Below, piece after piece: positions 444-64,000 of a DNA stretch of 64,000 bases (position 1 is the stretch's first letter; each line of letters opens with the position of its first letter). Made by a program: the position numbers and the translations under genes. Origin of the DNA: Octopus vulgaris (Eukaryota). Below the pieces are notes generated by a model. That model did no database searches and had not been told where the DNA came from. It saw only the letters and a program-made list of their open reading frames with translations. Where the stretch lies: assembly GCA_951406725.2 (NCBI GenBank), contig OX597840.1, forward strand, positions 13,082,001-13,146,000, read 5' to 3'.

Positions 444-1415
444 AGGTGATGAGCTGGCAGAATCGTTAGCATGCTGGGTAAAATGCTAAGTGGCATTTTG
501 CCTGTCTTTATGTTTTGAGTTCAAATGCCACTGAGGTCGACTTCACCTTTCATCCTTCTGGGGTCGATGAAATAAGTACCACTCGAGCACTGGGGTTGAT
601 GTAATAGACTAGGCCCCCTCTCCCAAGAATTTCAGGCCTTGTTCCTATAAAAGAAAGGATTGTTATCATTTTGGTTTGGCTCCGGTTTGGTCTTATTTCT
701 TGCAGGATTAATGTGGGTAGCAAGGTACTTACTGTAACCTTAGGGATCCACAAGTTTTCTGCAGTCTTTCAAGTGCTTAGAACCCTTCAGATAATCCTTG
801 CTGTTCCTAAGAGACAAACTTTCTGTAGGAGCTCTACTGGGCATTCTATTCCAATCTCCTTCAGCCATTCGTCTATATATATTCGCTTATTCTTCCCAAT
901 GCACCAATTATAAGAATATGGTGAACTGGCAGAATCGTTAGCAAACCAGGCAAAATGCTTAGAGATATTTTTTCTGTCTTTACGTTCTGAGTTTAAATTC
1001 TGCTGACGCTGACTTTGCCTTTCATCTCTTTGGGGTCGATAAATTAAGTACCATTTGCATATTGGGGTCGATCTAATCGACTTTATCCCTTTCCCCAGAT
1101 TTGAGGTCTTATGCTTCCAGTAGAAAGAATTATTATTGTTGATGTTGCTGTTATTGCTGTTGCTGCTGCTGTTGCTGTTGTTCTTGTTGTTGTTGCTGTA
1201 AGGCAGCAAGCTGGCAGAATTGTTAGCATGCTAGGCAAACTGCTTAGTAGTATTTTGTCCGTCTTAATGTTCTTAGTTCAAATTCTGCTGAGGTCGACTT
1301 AGCCTTTCATCTTTTCAGTGTCGATAAATTAAGTACCAGTTGAGCCCTGGAGGTGATGTAATCAACTAGCCCCTTCCCTCTAAATTTTGGGCCTTGTGCT
1401 TATAGTAAAAGGGGT
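444..1415 (+). mobile_element. Three SINE family B copies
   Basis: GAGCTGGCAGAATCGTTAGC...GAGTTCAAATTC...CCTTTCATCCTT..GGGGTCGATAAA.TAAGTACCA at ~444-660, 920-1135, 1200-1415; more at 4060-4260, 4811-5225, 6190-6617. Confidence 0.85.
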
Positions 1416-6189: not shown

Positions 6190-6630
6190 GGTGGTAAGCT
6201 GGCAGAATTGTTATCACACTGGATGAAATGCTTAGTGGTATTTCACCTGTTGCTATGTTCTGAGTTCAAGTTCTGCTGAGGTTGACTTTGTCTTTCATCC
6301 TCTTGGGGTCAGTAAATTAAGTACCAGTGAATCACAGGGGTTGATATAACCGACTAGTCCCCTCCTCAAAATTTCAAGGCTTTGTGCCTTCAATAGAAAG
6401 GATTATAATTATTATTATCAGAGCGGCAAGCAGGCAAAACGCTTAACAGCATTTCATCTGACCTTACATTCTGAGTTCAAATCATGCTGTGGTCGACTTT
6501 GGCTTTTTTCATCTTTTCAGGGTTGATAAAATAAGTACCAGTTAAATACTGGAGTCAATGTAATTGATTTACCCCTTCCCCTGAAATTACTGGCCGTGTG
6601 CCAAAATTTGAAACCAATATAACAACCATA

Positions 6631-7025
6631 GGCGCAGGAGTGTCTGTGTGGTAAGTAGCTTGCTTACCAACCACATGGTTCCGGGTTCAGTCCCTCTGCG
6701 TGGCTCCTTGGGCAAGTGTCTTCTGCTATAGCCCCGGGCCAACCAAAGCCTTGTGAGTTAATTTGGTAGACGGAAACTGAAAGAAGCCCGTCGTGTATAT
6801 ATATGTGTGTGTGTGTGTGTGTCTGTGTTTGTCCTCCTAGCATCGCTTGACAACCGATGCTGGTGTTTTTACGTCCCTGTCACTTAGCGGTTCGGCAAAA
6901 GAGACCGATTGAATAAGTACTGGGCTTACAAAGAATAAGTCCCGGGGTCAGTTTGCTCGACTAAAGGCGGTGCTCCAGCATGGCCACAGTCAAATGACTG
7001 AAACAAGTAAAAGAGAGTAAAAGAG
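6631..7025 (+). mobile_element. tRNA-derived SINE family A, full length
   Basis: A box TG(T)CTGTGTGG, B box GGTTCAGTCC, internal (TA/TG)n, hairpin tail plus (AAAAGAGT)-like repeats. Other + copies at ~9098-9490, 9949-10577, 13488-13878, 19483-19920, 62030-62395. Confidence 0.9.
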
Positions 7026-7671
7026 ATATCTAGCGTCACTATTGCTGGCACAGCTGGACCAGTAATTATATGCTTAAGGATTTTTTGTGAACAGCTGTGA
7101 CACACAGACACACTCAATAAACTTCTGAATACCTGGTGTTATGATTCTTTTATTTTATTTTTATTTATTATTCATTTGTTTATTTATTTTATGCTGTGTT
7201 TTTAATAAGTTTGCAGTGGAATTGTGAGGTTATGAGTTTGACTTCACTGCATGAATGCTGTTGCTTAACACTTAGCATTATAGCTGCGGGAAGGGTTTGA
7301 CAGAAAAGTCCTGAGTTCAATTCCTGGCAATGTATTGTGGCCTTGAGCAAGTCACTTTATTTCACATTGCTTCTGTCCATTCAGCTGGCAAAACTGAGCT
7401 GTACCTGTTATTCAAAAAGGCCAGCCATGTCACACTGTGTCACACTAAATTTCCCTGAAAACTCCATTAAGAGGATGCATGTCTGTGGAGTGCTCAGCCA
7501 CTTGCATGTTAATTTCACGTACTGGAAGCTTTAACTGGAACCTTCATCGTTGTGACAGTGCCATATGTGTGTGTGTACATATGTGTGTGTATAAATATGT
7601 GTGTATAATATATGTATATAATGTAAGAAGTGTTTATGTGTGCACATATAAATAATAGATGTGTGTGTGCG

Positions 7672-7709
<38 letters not shown>

Positions 7710-7990
7710 AATAATAATAATAGGGAGTATAACTCCAAACTTACAGGGAAAAATTCAGTTTAGTATTAAATCAAATTTCACAATATAAATATATAAAATA
7801 TAAATAAGAGATAAAACCACTATTATGCAATTCAAACAGTGATGGGCATAAACCAATACATAAATAACAAATATATATATTAAAAAAATTTATATATATA
7901 TATTGGTTATTTATGTATTGGTTTATGTCTATCAATGTTTGAGTTGCATAAAAGTGGTTTTCTCAAATTTATATATATATATAAATAAAT

Positions 7991-8036
7991 CCCTGCGCAA
8001 GGATGACACGCAAATTCGTGAAGCGTTCCATATTTT
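7991..8036 (+). ncRNA. U6: U6 snRNA 3'-half retrocopy (5'-truncated)
   Basis: CCCTGCGCAAGGATGACACGCAAATTCGTGAAGCGTTCCATATTTT matches the conserved metazoan U6 3' half with no mismatch I can see. The 5' half and promoter are absent. Confidence 0.93.
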
Positions 8037-8097
8037 CTAATGGCGGTGCCCCAGCATGGCCACAGCTTGTGAGCTGAAACTAAATAAAATATAAAAT
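8037..8097 (+). mobile_element. LINE/SINE-type 3' tail fused to the U6 fragment
   Basis: CTAATGGCGGTGCCCCAGCATGGCCACAGCTTGTGAGCTGAAACTAAATAAAATATAAAAT is homologous to the SINE A tail CTAAAGGCGGTGCTCCAGCATGGCCGCAGTCAAATGACTGAAACAAGTAAAAGAG. Confidence 0.85.
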
Positions 8098-8239
8098 ATA
8101 TATATATATATATATATATATCTATATATATATATATATACCGGAGTAAACACATAAATGCGAAACAAGGTGGAAAAAAGAGTACTCAAATACCAGTGGA
8201 GTAATATTGCTTTATTTAAAGCAGCAGAAAATTCAACAA

Positions 8240-8280
8240 AACCTGTTACTCTGAGTTTCCCATTGCCGTTCATCGGACAG

Positions 8281-8283
<3 letters not shown>
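8240..8283 (-). ncRNA. Degenerate minimal type-I hammerhead-like motif in a (TA)n-embedded repeat fragment (8141-8285)
   Basis: Minus strand: AAACTGT CCGATGA ACG-GCAA-TGG GAAA CTCAGAG TA ACAGGTT; stem I CTGT/ACAG, near-palindromic stem III, GUA triplet. Confidence 0.5.
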
Positions 8284-8365
<82 letters not shown>

Positions 8366-10782: not shown

Positions 10783-11198
10783 ACTCTTTTACTTGTTTCG
10801 GTCATTTGACTGTGGCCCTGCTGGAGCACTGCCTTCAGTCAATCAAATCGACCCCCAGGACTTATTCTTTGTAAGCCTAGTACTTATTCTATCGGTCTCT
10901 TTTGCTGAACCACTAAGTTACGGGGACGTAAACACACCATCATCGGTTGTCAGGTGATACTGGGGGGGACAAACGCAGACACACAAACATACACAGACAC
11001 ACACATACATACATATATATATATATACATATATACGATGGGCTTCTTTCAGTTTCCGTCTACCAAATCCACTCGCAAGGCTTTGGTCGGCCTGAGGCTA
11101 TAGCAGAAGACACTTGCCCCAGGTACCACACAGTGGGACTGAATCCGGAACCATATGGTTAGTAAGCAAGCTACATACCACACAGTCACTCCTACACC
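10783..11198 (-). mobile_element. SINE family A
   Basis: Reverse-complement copy of 6631-7025. Confidence 0.9.
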
Positions 11199-11217
11199 AA
11201 TGACAAAAGTAACTCGC

Positions 11218-11289
11218 CTCCCTGGCGGGGAATTGAGCCCCGGTCTCCCGCGTGACAGGCGGGGATACTTACCACTATACAACCGAGGA
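11218..11289 (-). tRNA. tRNA-Asp(GTC), variant or pseudogene
   Basis: Reverse complement TCCTCGGTTGTATAGTGGTAAGTATCCCCGCCTGTCACGCGGGAGACCGGGGCTCAATTCCCCGCCAGGGAG (72 nt) is near-identical to metazoan tRNA-Asp. It carries T54C, A9T and a C5-A68 mismatch; TTTT lies ~10 nt downstream (11205-11208). Confidence 0.88.
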
Positions 11290-12049
11290 ACAGCTAACTT
11301 TTCTGCCAGCTTGCCACTAAACACATAAGAACACTGAATTCTAACTCAGCACTTGAGGTTTTAACTGTTATTGTAGCTTGAAAATCAAAAGGAAAAAACA
11401 TTCAGAGAAGGTCACTTGATAAAACGCAAAAAATAAACACACCTAATGCAAACAGGAAGTGTTTTGATTACAAGTTTTGTTGCTGAAAGGAGGCTAAACT
11501 TTGTTTCTTGAACAGAAGAGTGCTTAGTTCCAGTTTTTTACCCCCAAACAACAACATTGCTTGAACGGTAGTCCAGGATTTGATTACAGGTGTAGATATC
11601 TGAGGTATAGAACTTTTAAGGGTTTAATCACGCTTGTGTCATCATCAGTATTGTCATCGTTTTAACATCCACTTTTCCTTGCTTGCATCGGTCAGAAGAT
11701 ATTTATTGCAGTGGATTTTTTTTCTATACCTGGATGTCCTTCCTGTTGCCAAAACTCACCTGCTTCTGAGTAAGGTGATATTTTTCCCTGTGGCTAAACA
11801 TGTTTTTGTGGAAGACTGGAAACAGACACCGCTTGCATGATGGTCACACTTGTTTACAACCATCACATGATAGTGACGCAAAGAGACAGTGATGTGCGTG
11901 CATGCATGCACACACGCACACATACACACACACATTCTTTTAGTTTCTATCAGATTCACTCACAAAGCATTGGTTGGCCAAATTTTTCTTCCAGCTGATT
12001 CACTTGCGTATTTTTTTGTGTACGTATGTATGTATGTGTTTATGTATGC

Positions 12050-19678: not shown

Positions 19679-19972
19679 ATCCCATCATCTCTTGACAACC
19701 GATATTGGTGTGTTTACATCCCTCTAAGCAGTTTAGCCAAAGGGACTGATACCATAAGTAACAGTTTTAAAGAAATGCCCTGAGGTTGATTCAGTCAACT
19801 AACGGATTCTTCTAGACAGTGCCCCAGCATGGCCACAGTCCTGGGGTCAATTTGCTCGGCTAAAGGCAGTGCTCCACCATGACCACAGTCAAATGACTGA
19901 AACAAGTAAAAGAAAAAGAGATTCAATAAGATGTTTAATTTTCTCAATTTTCCTGTTAATATTTTTAATATC

Positions 19973-22885: not shown

Positions 22886-23059
22886 ATGACTAACGTAACA
22901 TTTATTGCTGATTGAATCACTAAGTAAACGTAATAAAAAAGTACAAAAGTTTGCAAGGTGCAATAAAACATTTTGCCTCACGCCATAATGATTGATTCCG
23001 CTATGCGGAATTTTTGGTATGCGATATTCACCGATATAAACTACCTTAACTGGTGTTTT

Positions 23060-24023
23060 AACTTTTGCTTGTTTCATTCTTTAGACCGAGGCCATGCTGG
23101 AGCATCACATTATTCTTTTTATTCTTTTACTTGTTTCACTCGTTTGACTGTGGCCATGCTGGAGCACCGCCTTTAGTCGAATAAATTGACCCCCAGGACT
23201 TATTCTTTGTAAGCTTTGTACTTATTCTGTCGGTCTCTTTTACCAAACTGCTAAGTTACGAGGATGTAAACACACCACCGTCGGTTGTCAAGCGATGTTG
23301 GGGGACAAACACATACATGCATACATACATACATATATTTATATATATATATATATACACATATACACATATAATGTATGTATTGATGTGTGTGTGACTG
23401 TGTTTGCCCCCCCACACACACACACACATCTTTTATATTTTTCTTGTTTTAGTCATTAGACTGTGGCCATGCTGGGGCACTGACTTGAAGAATTTTTAGT
23501 TGAATGAATTGACCCCTGTGCTTATTTTTTTTTAAACCTGGCGCTTATTGTATCAGTCTCTTTTGCCAAACCATTAAGTTACAGGGATGTAAACACACCA
23601 GCACTGGTTGTCAAGCGGTGATGAGGGATAAACAGGTTCTTCCATTTTCCATCTACCAAATCTACTCACAAAGCTTTGGTTGGCCTCAGGCTATAGTAGA
23701 CACTTGCCCAAGGTGCCACGCAGTGAGACTGAACTCAGAACCATGTGGTTAGGAAGCAAGCTACTACTACTACTACTATATATATATATATGTTCTTTTG
23801 TTTGTTTCGGTCATTTGACTGTGGTCATGCTGGAGCATTGCCTTTAGTTAAACAAATCAGCTCCAGGAGTTATTCTTTGTAAGCCTAGTACATATTCCAT
23901 CGATGTCTTTTGCTGAACTGCTAAGTTATGGGGACATAAACACGCCAACATCAGTTGTCAAGCAATGATAGGGGGACAAACAAACACACAAATGTGTACA
24001 CACGCATACACACACGCACACAC

Positions 24024-28940: not shown

Positions 28941-30420
28941 GTTCTGGTTTTATCGGTCACAAGGGCTAATATAAATTAAAGACATGTAAGGACAAAAACA
29001 GGATGAAAAGTACAAAGGTTTTTGTGAAAAAAAAGGTCCGTGTAAACATTAAAATAACAATGAAAAATATAACAAATAAAACTCCCAAATAGGGGGAGGC
29101 ACTTTGAAAGGTTATTCATGGAAAAACCCATAAAAGCCACAGGAGCCTGGTCAAACAGGGAGAGAGCCCCTTCTTTTATATTACCATTTTTTTACAGGTG
29201 TAAGTAACCTTAGAATTGGTCTGTTCATATTGGCCATTTTACCGACATTCACCCACCTTTCAATAAATTTGCTATGGGACAACACTTCCCTCTCTACTCT
29301 CATCTTCCTTTTCAAGTGGAACTTGAAAAAGTTGATAAGGCCCTGGTCAAAGAGGAAAGTGTCTGACTCTAGCCCTTGCAAATGGGTCCACCATACCACC
29401 TCTTTCGCTACAGCCACCGGACAAGGAAAATTGCCTTGCCCTCTCTGTTAAAGGAGGTCAGCGGGGCAATCTTCACTGTGGATTCAGCTGATAGCCAGAT
29501 CTGTCCTACACACGACAAGCTGTTCAACATAAACCCACAGATCAGCAATACTTGGGCACTAGACGAGTGTTTGCAGAATGGTTTTATCACCCTGAGCGCA
29601 CCTCGGGCAGACCTGGCTGACGGCACTTCCGTGCCAGTAGAATTTATTTTGAACAGGCAGAGTCCCTCGGTAGCATTGCCAGGTGAGGGGATCTTTGGAA
29701 GCTATTCATGGGCCCAGCCTGAAAGTTCTTCCGAACAGACCGTTTAGCTGATTATCATCGACGCCTAGAGTTTCCCTGAGAACGTTGTCACACTTTTCCT
29801 GCACTAACCCTCTATAGAACGCTAGAGTGGAACTACTACCAGTCACATTGCCCACTTGGTGGAGGGTGGTGGGAGCTTGACGGCACTCAAGGTGACAAAT
29901 GCCCTTTCTCGGTCTGTGTTTGATCGAAGGGTGCAGCTCGTTTAAAGAGACGAGCTGTGGAAAGTCATGTCTGACCATCCAGGAAACACTTGAGATACCG
30001 TAGCCTGAGCGCATGTCTATGTATCAGCAACCTCAGCATGCCAAGGCCTCCATTTAGCAGCTGTTGACAGCAGATGGAGTGCTTGACCCTTTAACAGAAA
30101 GTCAAAGAGCAAGCACACCAACTTGGCCAGCCAGTGGTCAGGACAAGGGACGACGGTCAATAGGTAATAGATGATGGATGTGATGTACACATTTGCCACC
30201 TCCGCTTGACCTTTCCTCTCGGCCCTCTTTTGGGTGAGATTGGCCACCCTGCTCATCACATCCTCCCAGTTTTTCTCCACTTGGAGGTCCGGACCAAATC
30301 AGACTTCAGGCAGTTTAGCAGGACCATCTGTCCGGCATCCTACAACACTGTTGGATGGCATGGACTTGCCCCTCCAGGTGCCCAGTTGCAAGCCCGCCAA
30401 CTTTTCCTCGTTAATTTTCG
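28940..30420 (-). mobile_element. 5'-truncated Tx1/L1-clade LINE (ORF2 C-terminal part plus 3' UTR), frameshifted
   Basis: Minus-strand peptides GLQLGTWRGKSMP, FGPDLQVEKNWEDVMSRV, AEVANVYITSIIYYLLTVVPCP and a degenerate zinc knuckle CPRCAQGDKTILQTLV*CP; the 3' end ...TTAGCCCTTGTGACCGATAAA abuts (TTA)n. Confidence 0.85.
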
Positions 30421-40201: not shown

Positions 40202-40460
40202 ATCTGACCCATGCCAACATAGAAAACAGACATTACTCTCTTACTCTTTTGCTTTTAACTTATCCTTTACCTCTCCCTCATTTCTCCCACACCATTTATT
40301 CCTGTCTGTTTAATTGATCAATTTAATTAAATGGAAAAGCTATATTCCCTGAAGAATCGCAGATTGTTAGTAAAATATTTCATCTCTGTATTTGCATTTA
40401 AAAAAAACTTTTTTACATCTGTTTCATTTTCTTCCATCTTTTCTTTTTTGTCTTTTGCAG

Positions 40461-40691
40461 ATCGTAAGTTCTTAATCGCAAATGCTCAGGTTGAGAATAT
40501 ACCCATAATATTTTGCAACGATGGATTTTGTGAGTTGACAGGATATTCGCGGGCGGAGGTCATGCAAAAATCTTGCCTGTGTGACTTCCTTCACGGACCG
40601 CTAACAAATGCCTATGCTATTGTACAGATCAAAGAAGCTGTACAGGGATCTGAAGAAAAACAAGTGGAAATATTATATTACAAAAAGGATG
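40461..40691 (+). CDS. KCNH: Internal coding exon of an ERG-subfamily (KCNH2/6/7-like, EAG superfamily) K+ channel, N-terminal PAS domain; equivalent to hERG exon 2
   Basis: Polypyrimidine tract plus TTTTGCAG acceptor ending 40460; GTAAG donor at 40692; 231 bp, phase 1 at both ends. Translation [49 protein letters not shown]...[14 protein letters not shown] aligns colinearly with h[52 protein letters not shown]...EERKVEIAFYRKDG. Confidence 0.96.
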
Positions 40692-40949
40692 GTAAGACAT
40701 TTTTCTGTTTTTTTTTAATTTTATAATTTAAAAAACAACTGCAAAGGGTCAAAAAATTTTAAGCCTTTTACTGTAGAAATCAGATATATTCACTCAAAAT
40801 GTCATTACCCTTAACTGCAGAAAGCAGTTTTATATGCCATTCTGTCTTTTGTTCAGGAATGTCACATTTGGAAATTTTTTTGTTGAGATATGTCTAGCTT
40901 ATTGAGGCAACATGACTTGCAGAAAATACACAAACAATAATGCTGTAAC

Positions 40950-59958: not shown

Positions 59959-60247
59959 TCGTTCGTTTTTTGGCCACAAGGGCTAACAAAAATCAATTAA
60001 AACATAAAGGGACAAAACACAGGACGAAAGTTACAAAGGGTTTTGTCCGTTTGAAAAGGGTCCGTGTACAAAAGCAGGATAACAACGAAATGTAAGTAAC
60101 AATTAAAACTCCCAATAGGGGGAGGCGCTTCGAAAAGTTACTCTTGGAAAAACCCATAAAAGCCACAGGAGCCTGGTCAAAAGGTGGGGGTAGAGAGCCC
60201 CTTTCTCCTTTTATATTTCCTTTTAATTCACACAGGTGTATCTGCAG

Positions 60248-60248
<1 letters not shown>
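59959..60248 (-). mobile_element. Second, short 3'-UTR copy of the same Tx1/L1 LINE
   Basis: Clear homology to 28940-29200 (CACAAGGGCTAA, AAAACTCCC, GGAAAAACCCATAAAAGCCACAGGAGCCTGGTCAAA); flanked by TAA/TGA triplet repeats on both sides. Confidence 0.85.
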
Positions 60249-60285
<37 letters not shown>

Positions 60286-63014: not shown

Positions 63015-63380
63015 TTCAGTTTTATTTTAAGAATTCTTGCCAATAGAGAAAGCACCAGTTTCTAACTTAGATAAAAGGCTCCTTGATTGGAATTTCAACA
63101 TCAACAACAGGGTATTTTTGTATGTATGTGTGTGTGTTTGTGTGTGTGTGCAGATTTGTATGTTTTGTTTTATGTATGTATTCTCATGCATATAGTTGCA
63201 TTTCTAGATATACTCATGTAATATTTAAATGATAGACTTCTGGAAAGTTTTACAAATCTTTACAGTTCCAGTGATGGATTGGATCTGATGTCTTCAAATC
63301 AGCTTTCTCCTTTCTGGCTTTGAGAAGCCTAATTTCTCAAGATTGGTATTTAGGCAGTGTGTTACATATCTCAGGGCCTC
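63015..63380 (-). mobile_element. Tandem 5'-truncated copy of the same RLE element 3' end
   Basis: Diverged duplicate of ~63411-63745 (TTCTTGCCAATAG, TTCCAGTGATGGATTGGATCTG, TTCTCAAGATTGGTATTTA). Confidence 0.85.
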
Positions 63381-63410
63381 ATGTATGTTTGTATGTATAT
63401 ATGTTATTAT

Positions 63411-64000
63411 TCAATTTATTTCAAGATTTCTTGCCAATAGAAAAAGAACCGGTTTCTAACCTAGATCCAAGGCTCCTTCATTGGAATTTCAACATCAACC
63501 ACAGGGTATTTTTTTATGTATGTGCAGAGTTATATGTTTTATACATGTATTCTCATGCATATAGTTACATATCTAGACATGCGCATATATGTTTTAATGA
63601 TAAACTTCTGGAAAGCTTTACAGATTTGTCCATTTCCAGTGATGGATTGGATCTGTAGTTTTTGAATTAGCTTTCTCCTTTCTTGTTTTGAGAAGCCTAT
63701 TTCTCAAGATTGGTATTTATGCAGTGTGTTACATATCCCAAGGTCCCAATAATCACATGTATAAACCTGAACTTGTAATCTAGGTAGAATAACTGCAGAT
63801 TTCTCAATAGTTCAGCATAAGTGTTCTCTTTTTCACTGATCTTCAGCTTTATGTTAACATATGATGGGCAGCTAATTTCTACAACTGTGCACAGTTTTTC
63901 TTCCCTATCCCAAATCATTATATCGGGTCTGTTGTGCTTACATTTTATTGAGGTCTTCACTGGTACATTCCACCAGTACTGCTTTTTATGATGAGTGGCT
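63411..64000 (-). mobile_element. R2-superfamily (restriction-like endonuclease) non-LTR retrotransposon 3' end; runs off the window
   Basis: ORF 63697-63960 HNRPDIMIWDREEKLCTVVEISCP...KISEKENTYAEL...VIIGTLG carries the PD-(D/E)xK RLE motif; 3' UTR extends to ~63411. Confidence 0.88.

What the first reader, a model, noticed from the sequence alone, without database searches (positions are those of the whole stretch)
7991..8097. U6 snRNA 3' half fused at its U4 end to a structured LINE-type tail: U6/LINE chimera or U6-headed SINE in an invertebrate
Seen: 46 nt matching the U6 3' end terminate in exactly TTTT and join without spacer to a ~60-nt tail homologous to the SINE A tail, all embedded in (TA)n. 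Known: vertebrate U6/L1 chimeras join U6 ending in ~4 U to a LINE 3' segment (RtcB ligation or template switch), and snRNA-headed SINEs (U1/U2-derived SINEU) exist in crocodilians. Inference: a non-L1, stem-loop-recognising LINE (possibly CR1-type) retroposed a U6-tail fusion RNA. The unmutated U6 part suggests a recent event. I do not recall this being described in cephalopods.
Basis: partly seen in the sequence, partly recalled or inferred. Interest (0 to 1): 0.8.

Follow-up and report, generated by a model that had tools for sequence, protein, structure and literature searches.

The report
U6 RNA fused to retrotransposon tail
The back half of the splicing RNA U6 was copied into a cephalopod genome joined to the short recognition tail of a jumping gene, a kind of hybrid already known from platypus and lizards, here seen once in an invertebrate.

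Summary
7991-8036 is the 3' 46 nt of U6 (Rfam E 8.6e-9), ending in four uridines and joined in sense to a two-hairpin retroelement tail (8037-~8096), between (TA)n arrays. The host is a coleoid cephalopod, and the site probably lies in intron 1 of a KCNH7-like gene. The tail is not a decayed copy of the local SINE tail. It differs at 8 of 9 positions in hairpin 2, which stays paired, but at only 1 of 30 elsewhere, and it is the only one of its type among 28 tail-like places in the window. Best reading (0.7): a one-off chimeric retrocopy made in one insertion by a tail-recognising ('stringent') non-L1 LINE, after RNA ligation or a template jump. The same anatomy, 5'-truncated U6 plus short LINE end, is published for platypus L2, with related cases for lizard L2/RTE-X, opossum RTE and turkey CR1. 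My searches found no invertebrate case. The partner LINE, copy number, junction reads and empty site were not obtained, so 'CR1' is unsupported and a U6-headed SINE family (about 0.12) stays open. New member of a known kind; interest 0.35.

The parts
7991..8036 (+). 3' 46 nt of U6 snRNA (Rfam model positions 59-104), 5'-truncated, ending in four T; lacks the 5' stem-loop, ACAGAGA box and AGC triad (positions recalled), so it cannot work as U6
   Evidence: RF00026, 39.7 bits, E 8.6e-9; no 5' half upstream
8037..8041 (+). five bases between the U6 end and hairpin 1; they already align with the SINE A tail (4 of 5 match the word found in 13 of 23 SINE-type tails)
8042..8061 (+). tail hairpin 1, shared with the local SINE families (1 difference from their consensus in alignment columns 1-24)
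8063..8076 (+). tail hairpin 2: stem CAGCT/AGCTG with loop TGTG, against stem CAGTC/GACTG with loop AAAT in the SINE consensus; two inner pairs changed on both sides, new loop
8077..8096 (+). conserved AAAC followed by short A-rich terminal repeats, the presumed priming end
7982..7989 (+). 8-nt A/T word repeated at 8081-8088: candidate target-site duplication or priming microhomology (inconclusive)
   Evidence: word occurs 8 (+) and 16 (-) times in the window
7970..7983 (.). (TA)7 array on the 5' side
8096..8140 (.). (AT)22.5 array on the 3' side
7798..7976 (.). left flank: 88-nt inverted repeat, 84% complementary, 3-nt spacer; a separate TA-associated element
6630..7015 (+). reference copy of the local SINE ('SINE A'), with an A/B-box-like head by eye and the sister two-hairpin tail; 13 near-full copies in the window, this one included

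Best explanation
A dead, one-off chimeric retrocopy. Shown: mature-ended U6 3' half, in sense, directly ahead of a minimal two-hairpin tail, at a TA-rich site. Inferred steps: (1) The ORF2 protein of a stringent non-L1 LINE held the 3' hairpins of its own RNA, or of a sister SINE's RNA, and that RNA was broken five bases upstream of hairpin 1. (2) U6 was joined to it. I slightly favour ligation of the U6 2',3'-cyclic-phosphate end to the 5'-OH fragment by RtcB (about 0.38 of the 0.7) over an end-to-end template jump by the reverse transcriptase (about 0.32). (3) Target-primed reverse transcription began at a TA-rich nick, helped by pairing of the A-rich terminal repeats. (4) Copying stopped after about 100 nt, inside the cytidine run of the U6 internal stem-loop. 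The product has no promoter of its own and no U6 function.
For: U6 part ends at the natural 3' end with four T and is in sense. Human U6/L1 junctions end in about 4-8 T (PMC6789731 passages) and 98.3% are sense (PMC13174262 passages). Platypus U6-L2 chimeras almost all have 5'-truncated U6 plus a short L2 piece, with TSDs of only 1-9 bp in 72.5% of 40: the same anatomy. The tail is structured (z -3.35; 92.7% of cells paired against 18-43% when slid) and shared with at least two local SINE types, which is the usual sign of a LINE-derived recognition tail (PMC4824008 passages). It differs from the SINE consensus at 8 of 9 positions in columns 25-33 (the other 23 tails: 0-3) but at 1 of 30 elsewhere. 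Stringent LINE ORF2 reads the stem generally and the loop specifically (PMC4176376 abstract), so a new loop fits a sister LINE. The U6 end is not repeated after the tail, which argues against the tail inserting into an existing U6 copy. Only one copy in 64 kb.
Against: No LINE open reading frame ending in this tail was found. The three LINE-like fragments in the window end differently, and outside scans were empty or gave chance hits. So the donor may be a SINE and the clade is unknown. Covariation is not significant (pairs changed on both sides: 82 of 500 shuffles as high) and rests on this one sequence; a gapped alignment of hairpin 2 is also possible. The TSD is ambiguous in low-complexity DNA. 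There is no read-level confirmation, copy number or empty site. Nothing in a single copy separates ligation from template jumping. Usb1 and RtcB were not checked in the host, and some metazoans lack Usb1 (PMC5855946 passages).
Confidence: 0.7

Rival explanations
1. A U6-headed SINE family. A master locus (a U6 gene with this tail behind its weak four-T terminator, or a chimera transcribed from flanking DNA) makes U6-tail RNA that the LINE copies repeatedly, and this is one 5'-truncated copy.
For: The anatomy is RNA head plus minimal tail, and the tail begins about where the local SINE families begin to share it. U1/U2-headed SINEU families and the snoRNA-headed platypus snoRTE exist. Meeting one copy in a single 64-kb window is more likely if the family is abundant. 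The site is in sense within a probable long intron, a possible route to transcription.
Against: One copy among 28 tail-like places in the window. No look-alike in earlier scan findings. snRNA genes have no internal promoter. No U6-headed SINE in the search 'U6-derived' + 'SINE'. An unchanged U6 part is what copying of cellular U6 gives. Platypus reaches 40 independent chimeras without a family being claimed.
Confidence: 0.12
2. Two independent insertions: a 5'-truncated U6 retrocopy made first (for example by an L1/Tx1-like element), and later a very short LINE or SINE 3' end that landed at its T-run.
For: An L1/Tx1-like fragment (clade recalled, no Pfam hit) lies at about 29,000-30,300, so another retroposition machinery exists. 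TA-rich sites attract insertions.
Against: No duplication of the U6 end after the tail, no poly(A) and no spacer. Same orientation and base-exact abutment would be a coincidence.
Confidence: 0.08
3. The chimera was made elsewhere and is carried or multiplied as a passenger of the TA-associated element(s) around it, or by DNA-level duplication.
For: Both flanks look like repeat-derived modules between TA arrays. Several runs guessed to be RNA hold about a quarter of the words of 7700-8300, which suggests that part of the stretch is a repeat.
Against: No second copy of either flank was seen in the part of the BLAST output shown (the output was cut). The shares cannot be assigned to a position.
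Confidence: 0.06
4. Assembly artefact or contaminating U6 sequence joined to a repeat in low-complexity DNA.
For: The site is bracketed by TA arrays. The best DNA run holds only 0.53 of the words of 7700-8300. No junction-spanning read was seen.
Against: The join is at the exact biological 3' end of U6, in sense, to a host-type tail. A mis-join has no reason to respect that. The window has no N.
Confidence: 0.04

Closest known systems
Platypus U6-L2 and U6-Mon-1 chimeras; lizard U6-L2/RTE-X/AnolisSINE2, opossum U6-RTE, turkey U6-CR1 (Doucet et al. 2015, PMC4476161; section 10 read whole, plus passages)
   Same: 5'-truncated U6 ahead of a short 3' end of a stringent, stem-loop-recognising element; simple-repeat 3' terminus; short or unclear TSD.
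   Different: Host is a cephalopod mollusc, not a vertebrate. The tail has two hairpins and its LINE clade is unidentified. The element part is only about 60 nt. It sits between TA arrays. One copy is known here, against 40 in platypus.
Human U6/LINE-1 chimeras formed by RtcB ligation (Moldovan et al. 2019, PMC6789731; Law and Burns 2026, PMC13174262; passages)
   Same: U6 intact at its 3' end with about four T, sense orientation, joined to a 5'-truncated element end.
   Different: In mammals U6 is mostly full-length, the partner is poly(A)-ended L1 and TSDs are clear. Here U6 is truncated, there is no poly(A) and the tail is structured.
SINEU, U1/U2-headed SINEs of crocodilians (Kojima 2015, PMC4494074; first fifth of the text and passages)
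   Same: snRNA-derived 5' part on a short retroposon without internal promoter.
   Different: SINEU are multi-copy families with shared structure, built on U1/U2 and probably moved by Tx1. Here the RNA is U6 and no family is shown.
Octopus tRNA-derived SINEs OK/OR1/OR2 (Ohshima and Okada 1994; seen only as a citation; match to the local SINEs is recalled)
   Same: The local SINEs share hairpin 1 and the AAAC end with the chimera's tail.
   Different: The chimera has a U6 head, no SINE body and a different hairpin 2.

Membership tests
U6/LINE chimeric retrocopy | U6-derived segment that keeps the natural 3' end with about 4 or more T | tested here: met
U6/LINE chimeric retrocopy | U6 is 5' of, in sense with, and directly joined to a retroelement 3' end | tested here: met
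   homology to retroelement tails starts at 8037
U6/LINE chimeric retrocopy | 3' part comes from an autonomous LINE (rather than a SINE) | tested here: inconclusive
   distinct sister tail but no LINE ORF linked to it
U6/LINE chimeric retrocopy | single insertion event: TSD around both parts, or an empty allele | tested here: inconclusive
   8-nt A/T word on both sides, not distinctive; no empty allele available
U6/LINE chimeric retrocopy | no U6 promoter or 5' half upstream (not a gene) | tested here: met
   no U6 match in 6600-7985; promoter elements themselves not scanned
RtcB-ligation type | U6-tail fusion RNAs without genomic template; U6 with cyclic phosphate; RtcB dependence | not testable with these tools
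   needs raw RNA reads and biochemistry; criteria from PMC6789731
snRNA-headed SINE (SINEU-like) | many copies with one shared structure and junction | tested here: inconclusive
   1 copy in 64 kb; no genome held
snRNA-headed SINE (SINEU-like) | master copies or shared diagnostic changes that set it apart from the cellular snRNA | not testable with these tools
   single copy; criterion from PMC4494074
Copy of the local SINE A | SINE body upstream and SINE-type hairpin 2 | tested here: not met
   BLAST of SINE A covers only its last ~52 nt here; 8 of 9 differences in columns 25-33
   motif absent from the supplement files searched and from full texts; bivalve CR1 and L2 tails both have stem-loops, so structure alone does not name a clade

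The most novel reading that the evidence does not exclude
This is a member of a U6-headed SINE family in cephalopods: the first SINE built on U6, and the first snRNA-headed SINE outside crocodilians. It would run from a master U6 locus that reads through into a LINE tail with its own hairpin-2 loop and would target TA microsatellites.
Probability: 0.12. Interest if true: 0.72.

Novelty: new member of a known kind. Interest (0 to 1): 0.35.

Why it matters
If confirmed as a one-off chimera, it extends U6/retroelement fusion from vertebrates to molluscs. That would suggest the special reactivity of the U6 3' end towards LINE RNPs is old and not tied to L1. It also gives a test case: in a stringent-LINE invertebrate, a genome-wide census of junction positions and a search for untemplated U6-tail RNAs could separate ligation from template jumping. 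It shows the minimal 'RNA head + LINE tail' step thought to found SINEs. One copy has no likely function. Only a multi-copy family would surprise a specialist.

Tried and rejected
No whole genome is held, so no copy count. Tail patterns in public collections: viral contigs 0; metagenomes 0 for the exact 23-mer; 15 hits for a degenerate 20-mer, all in GC-rich (0.56-0.72) contigs without hairpin 2 or the AAAC end, so chance; prokaryote genomes 0; phages 0. Sequencing-run search on 7700-8300: 20 of 24 listed runs hold part of it, best share 0.53, under at least four organism labels; shares cannot be placed on the junction and are not used as support. No read- or contig-level view of the junction was obtained. 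Partner LINE in the window: fragments at about 790-900(-), 63,100-64,000(-) and 29,000-30,300(-) end in other tails; Pfam and Atlas gave nothing useful for them. Octopus vulgaris transcriptome supplement of PMC9115989 could not be read; 4 of 8 files searched for the tail gave 0; file 8 had no 'snRNA'. Those unread files could hold the LINE. Tail motifs were absent from the searched supplements of PMC4824008, PMC5786205 and PMC4758252 (one file each of the first and third not searched) and from full texts. A hammerhead in the right flank, suspected by eye, was not supported: no Rfam hammerhead at E<=10, fold z 0.15 and 0.49. A micro-inversion does not explain hairpin 2 (by inspection). TA targeting: a TA array starts within 20 nt of the end for this tail and for 1 of 23 SINE tails, background 1.4%; one selected case is too little. 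PMC7754599, PMC11727581 and PMC10886601 (passages) had nothing on invertebrate U6 chimeras.

Full report
What is there. Positions 7991-8036 align to the 3' part of the Rfam U6 model (39.7 bits, E 8.6e-9 for the 301 bases scanned). The score is under the gathering threshold because more than half of U6 is missing, which is why the whole-window scan listed only a tRNA-Asp. The core matches 42 of 46 consensus positions and ends in four T. Identity to human U6 over all 46 bases is from memory; the host's U6 was not available. No U6 5' half lies in 6600-7985. From the next base on, the sequence aligns to the 3' tails of the window's SINEs. It folds into two adjacent hairpins (z -3.35; z -2.42 for 8042-8085), followed by AAAC and short A-rich repeats. 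(TA)7 lies just upstream and (AT)22.5 just downstream.

The tail is a sister of the SINE tail, not a copy. A motif search found 27 first-hairpin matches. A covariance model built from 24 of them found 28 places at E<0.001, the 24 training rows included. Only the finding's copy has hairpin 2 with stem CAGCT/AGCTG and loop TGTG. Against the consensus of the other 23 aligned tails it differs at 8 of 9 positions in columns 25-33 (others 0-3) and at 1 of 30 elsewhere. Both changed pairs stay paired, but this is one sequence and the covariation is not significant (82 of 500 shuffles as high); a gapped alignment is also possible. SINE A (6630-7015) matches here only over its last ~52 nt. Zebrafish L2 proteins read the stem generally and the loop specifically (PMC4176376, abstract). 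So the simplest inference is a related but different LINE, or a different SINE that depends on it. I could not find that element. The window's LINE-like fragments end differently. Public contig scans gave nothing real. Literature and supplement searches for the motif were empty or incomplete. The suggestion of CR1 is therefore untested.

Host and setting. An exon at 40460-40693(+) encodes a PAS domain. Its best named relatives are mollusc KCNH channels at 72-88% identity, against 64-68% for vertebrates. A 99%-identical protein clusters with cuttlefish KCNH7. The host is thus a coleoid cephalopod; 'octopus' rests on recalled SINE sequences. The first 25 residues of that protein do not map in the window, so the chimera probably sits in sense in an intron 1 longer than 40 kb (inference). 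The left flank is an 88-nt inverted repeat. An 8-nt A/T word occurs just before the U6 part and again at 8081-8088. It could be a TSD, priming microhomology or both. It occurs 24 times in the window on both strands, though only 1 of 84 TA-array ends carries such a word, and it also resembles the tail's own terminal repeat. I count it as inconclusive. The U6 end is not repeated after the tail, which argues against the tail inserting later into a U6 copy.

Mechanism. Shown: order, orientation, intact U6 3' end, minimal structured tail, 5' truncation. Inferred: one target-primed reverse transcription event by a tail-recognising LINE on an RNA broken five bases before hairpin 1. U6 was added either by ligation or by a template jump. 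RtcB joins U6 with a 2',3'-cyclic phosphate to 5'-OH RNA fragments, and the products end in about four T (PMC6789731, passages), so I lean slightly to ligation. An end-to-end jump gives the same DNA, however, and Doucet et al. read their non-L1 cases as template switches. Usb1, which makes the cyclic phosphate, is missing in some metazoans (PMC5855946, passages) and was not checked here. The 5' end falls in the cytidine run that is 2'-O-methylated in human U6 (C60, C62, C63). By recalled numbering it is the base after C60. With one copy and eight methylated sites this is only a prediction to test. Zero changes in 46 nt allows up to about 6% divergence, so 'recent' is loose.

Comparison with what is known. 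Doucet et al. 2015 (PMC4476161, section 10 read whole) describe platypus chimeras in which almost all U6-L2 copies have 5'-truncated U6 ahead of a short L2 piece, with TSDs of 1-9 bp in 72.5% of 40. They also give lizard chimeras with L1, L2, RTE-X and a SINE, two opossum RTE-type cases and one turkey CR1 case. That is this anatomy, so it works like a U6/LINE chimera and meets the sequence criteria I could test; LINE donor and single-event status stay inconclusive. The word 'invertebrate' does not occur in that paper or in the 2026 L1 chimera census. Searches of the held library found no invertebrate U6/LINE chimera and no U6-headed SINE (listings, with passages read for the papers cited). The library lacks most subscription journals and Repbase was not available, so this is not proof of absence. 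Earlier findings of this scan note snRNA/LINE fusions and U6 retrocopies in other genomes, including fungi (unchecked), and none matches this sequence.

Verdict. A real U6/retroelement-tail chimera, a new member of a known kind in a new animal group. The open, more novel reading is a U6-headed SINE family. For it: the head-plus-minimal-tail build and the precedent of SINEU and snoRTE. Against it: one copy in 64 kb and no internal promoter. I put it at about 0.12. Read-level support, copy number and the empty site were not obtained, and they decide the question. Interest 0.35.

Noticed in passing
window 40460-40693 (+): Exon of a KCNH7/erg-type potassium channel (PAS domain), 97% identical to a protein that clusters with cuttlefish KCNH7; exon 1 and later exons were not found in the window, so the flanking introns are very long.
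   Followed up: partly
window 11216-11290 (-): tRNA-Asp(GTC) gene or copy lying directly 5' of a SINE A copy at 10784-11193(-), about 25 nt apart and on the same strand; possibly a tRNA/SINE chimera or chance neighbour.
   Followed up: no
window 7798-7976: 88-nt inverted repeat (84% complementary) centred on a TA/A-rich spacer, between TA arrays; unidentified element.
   Followed up: partly
window 8140-8285: 146-nt module between two TA arrays, by recall like Penelope-type termini; a hammerhead-like motif seen by eye was not supported by Rfam or folding.
   Followed up: partly
window ~790-900 (-) and 63100-64000 (-): 3' fragments of restriction-like-endonuclease LINEs (R4/Dong-like by recall); the second has an internal tandem duplication of its end region.
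   Followed up: partly
window ~29000-30300 (-): Decayed L1/Tx1-like LINE 3' fragment (clade recalled; no Pfam or Atlas hit) ending at a (TTA)n array; a related 3' end seems to recur near 60000-60250.
   Followed up: partly
window 10525, 17618, 23484, 48574: A second SINE type shares the two-hairpin tail but has a different upstream body and hairpin-2 loops (TAAT, TATT); tail sharing among several SINE families.
   Followed up: partly
window 19815-19915 (+) and 23059-23171 (-): Tandem double tails: two tail copies head to tail about 50-60 nt apart.
   Followed up: no
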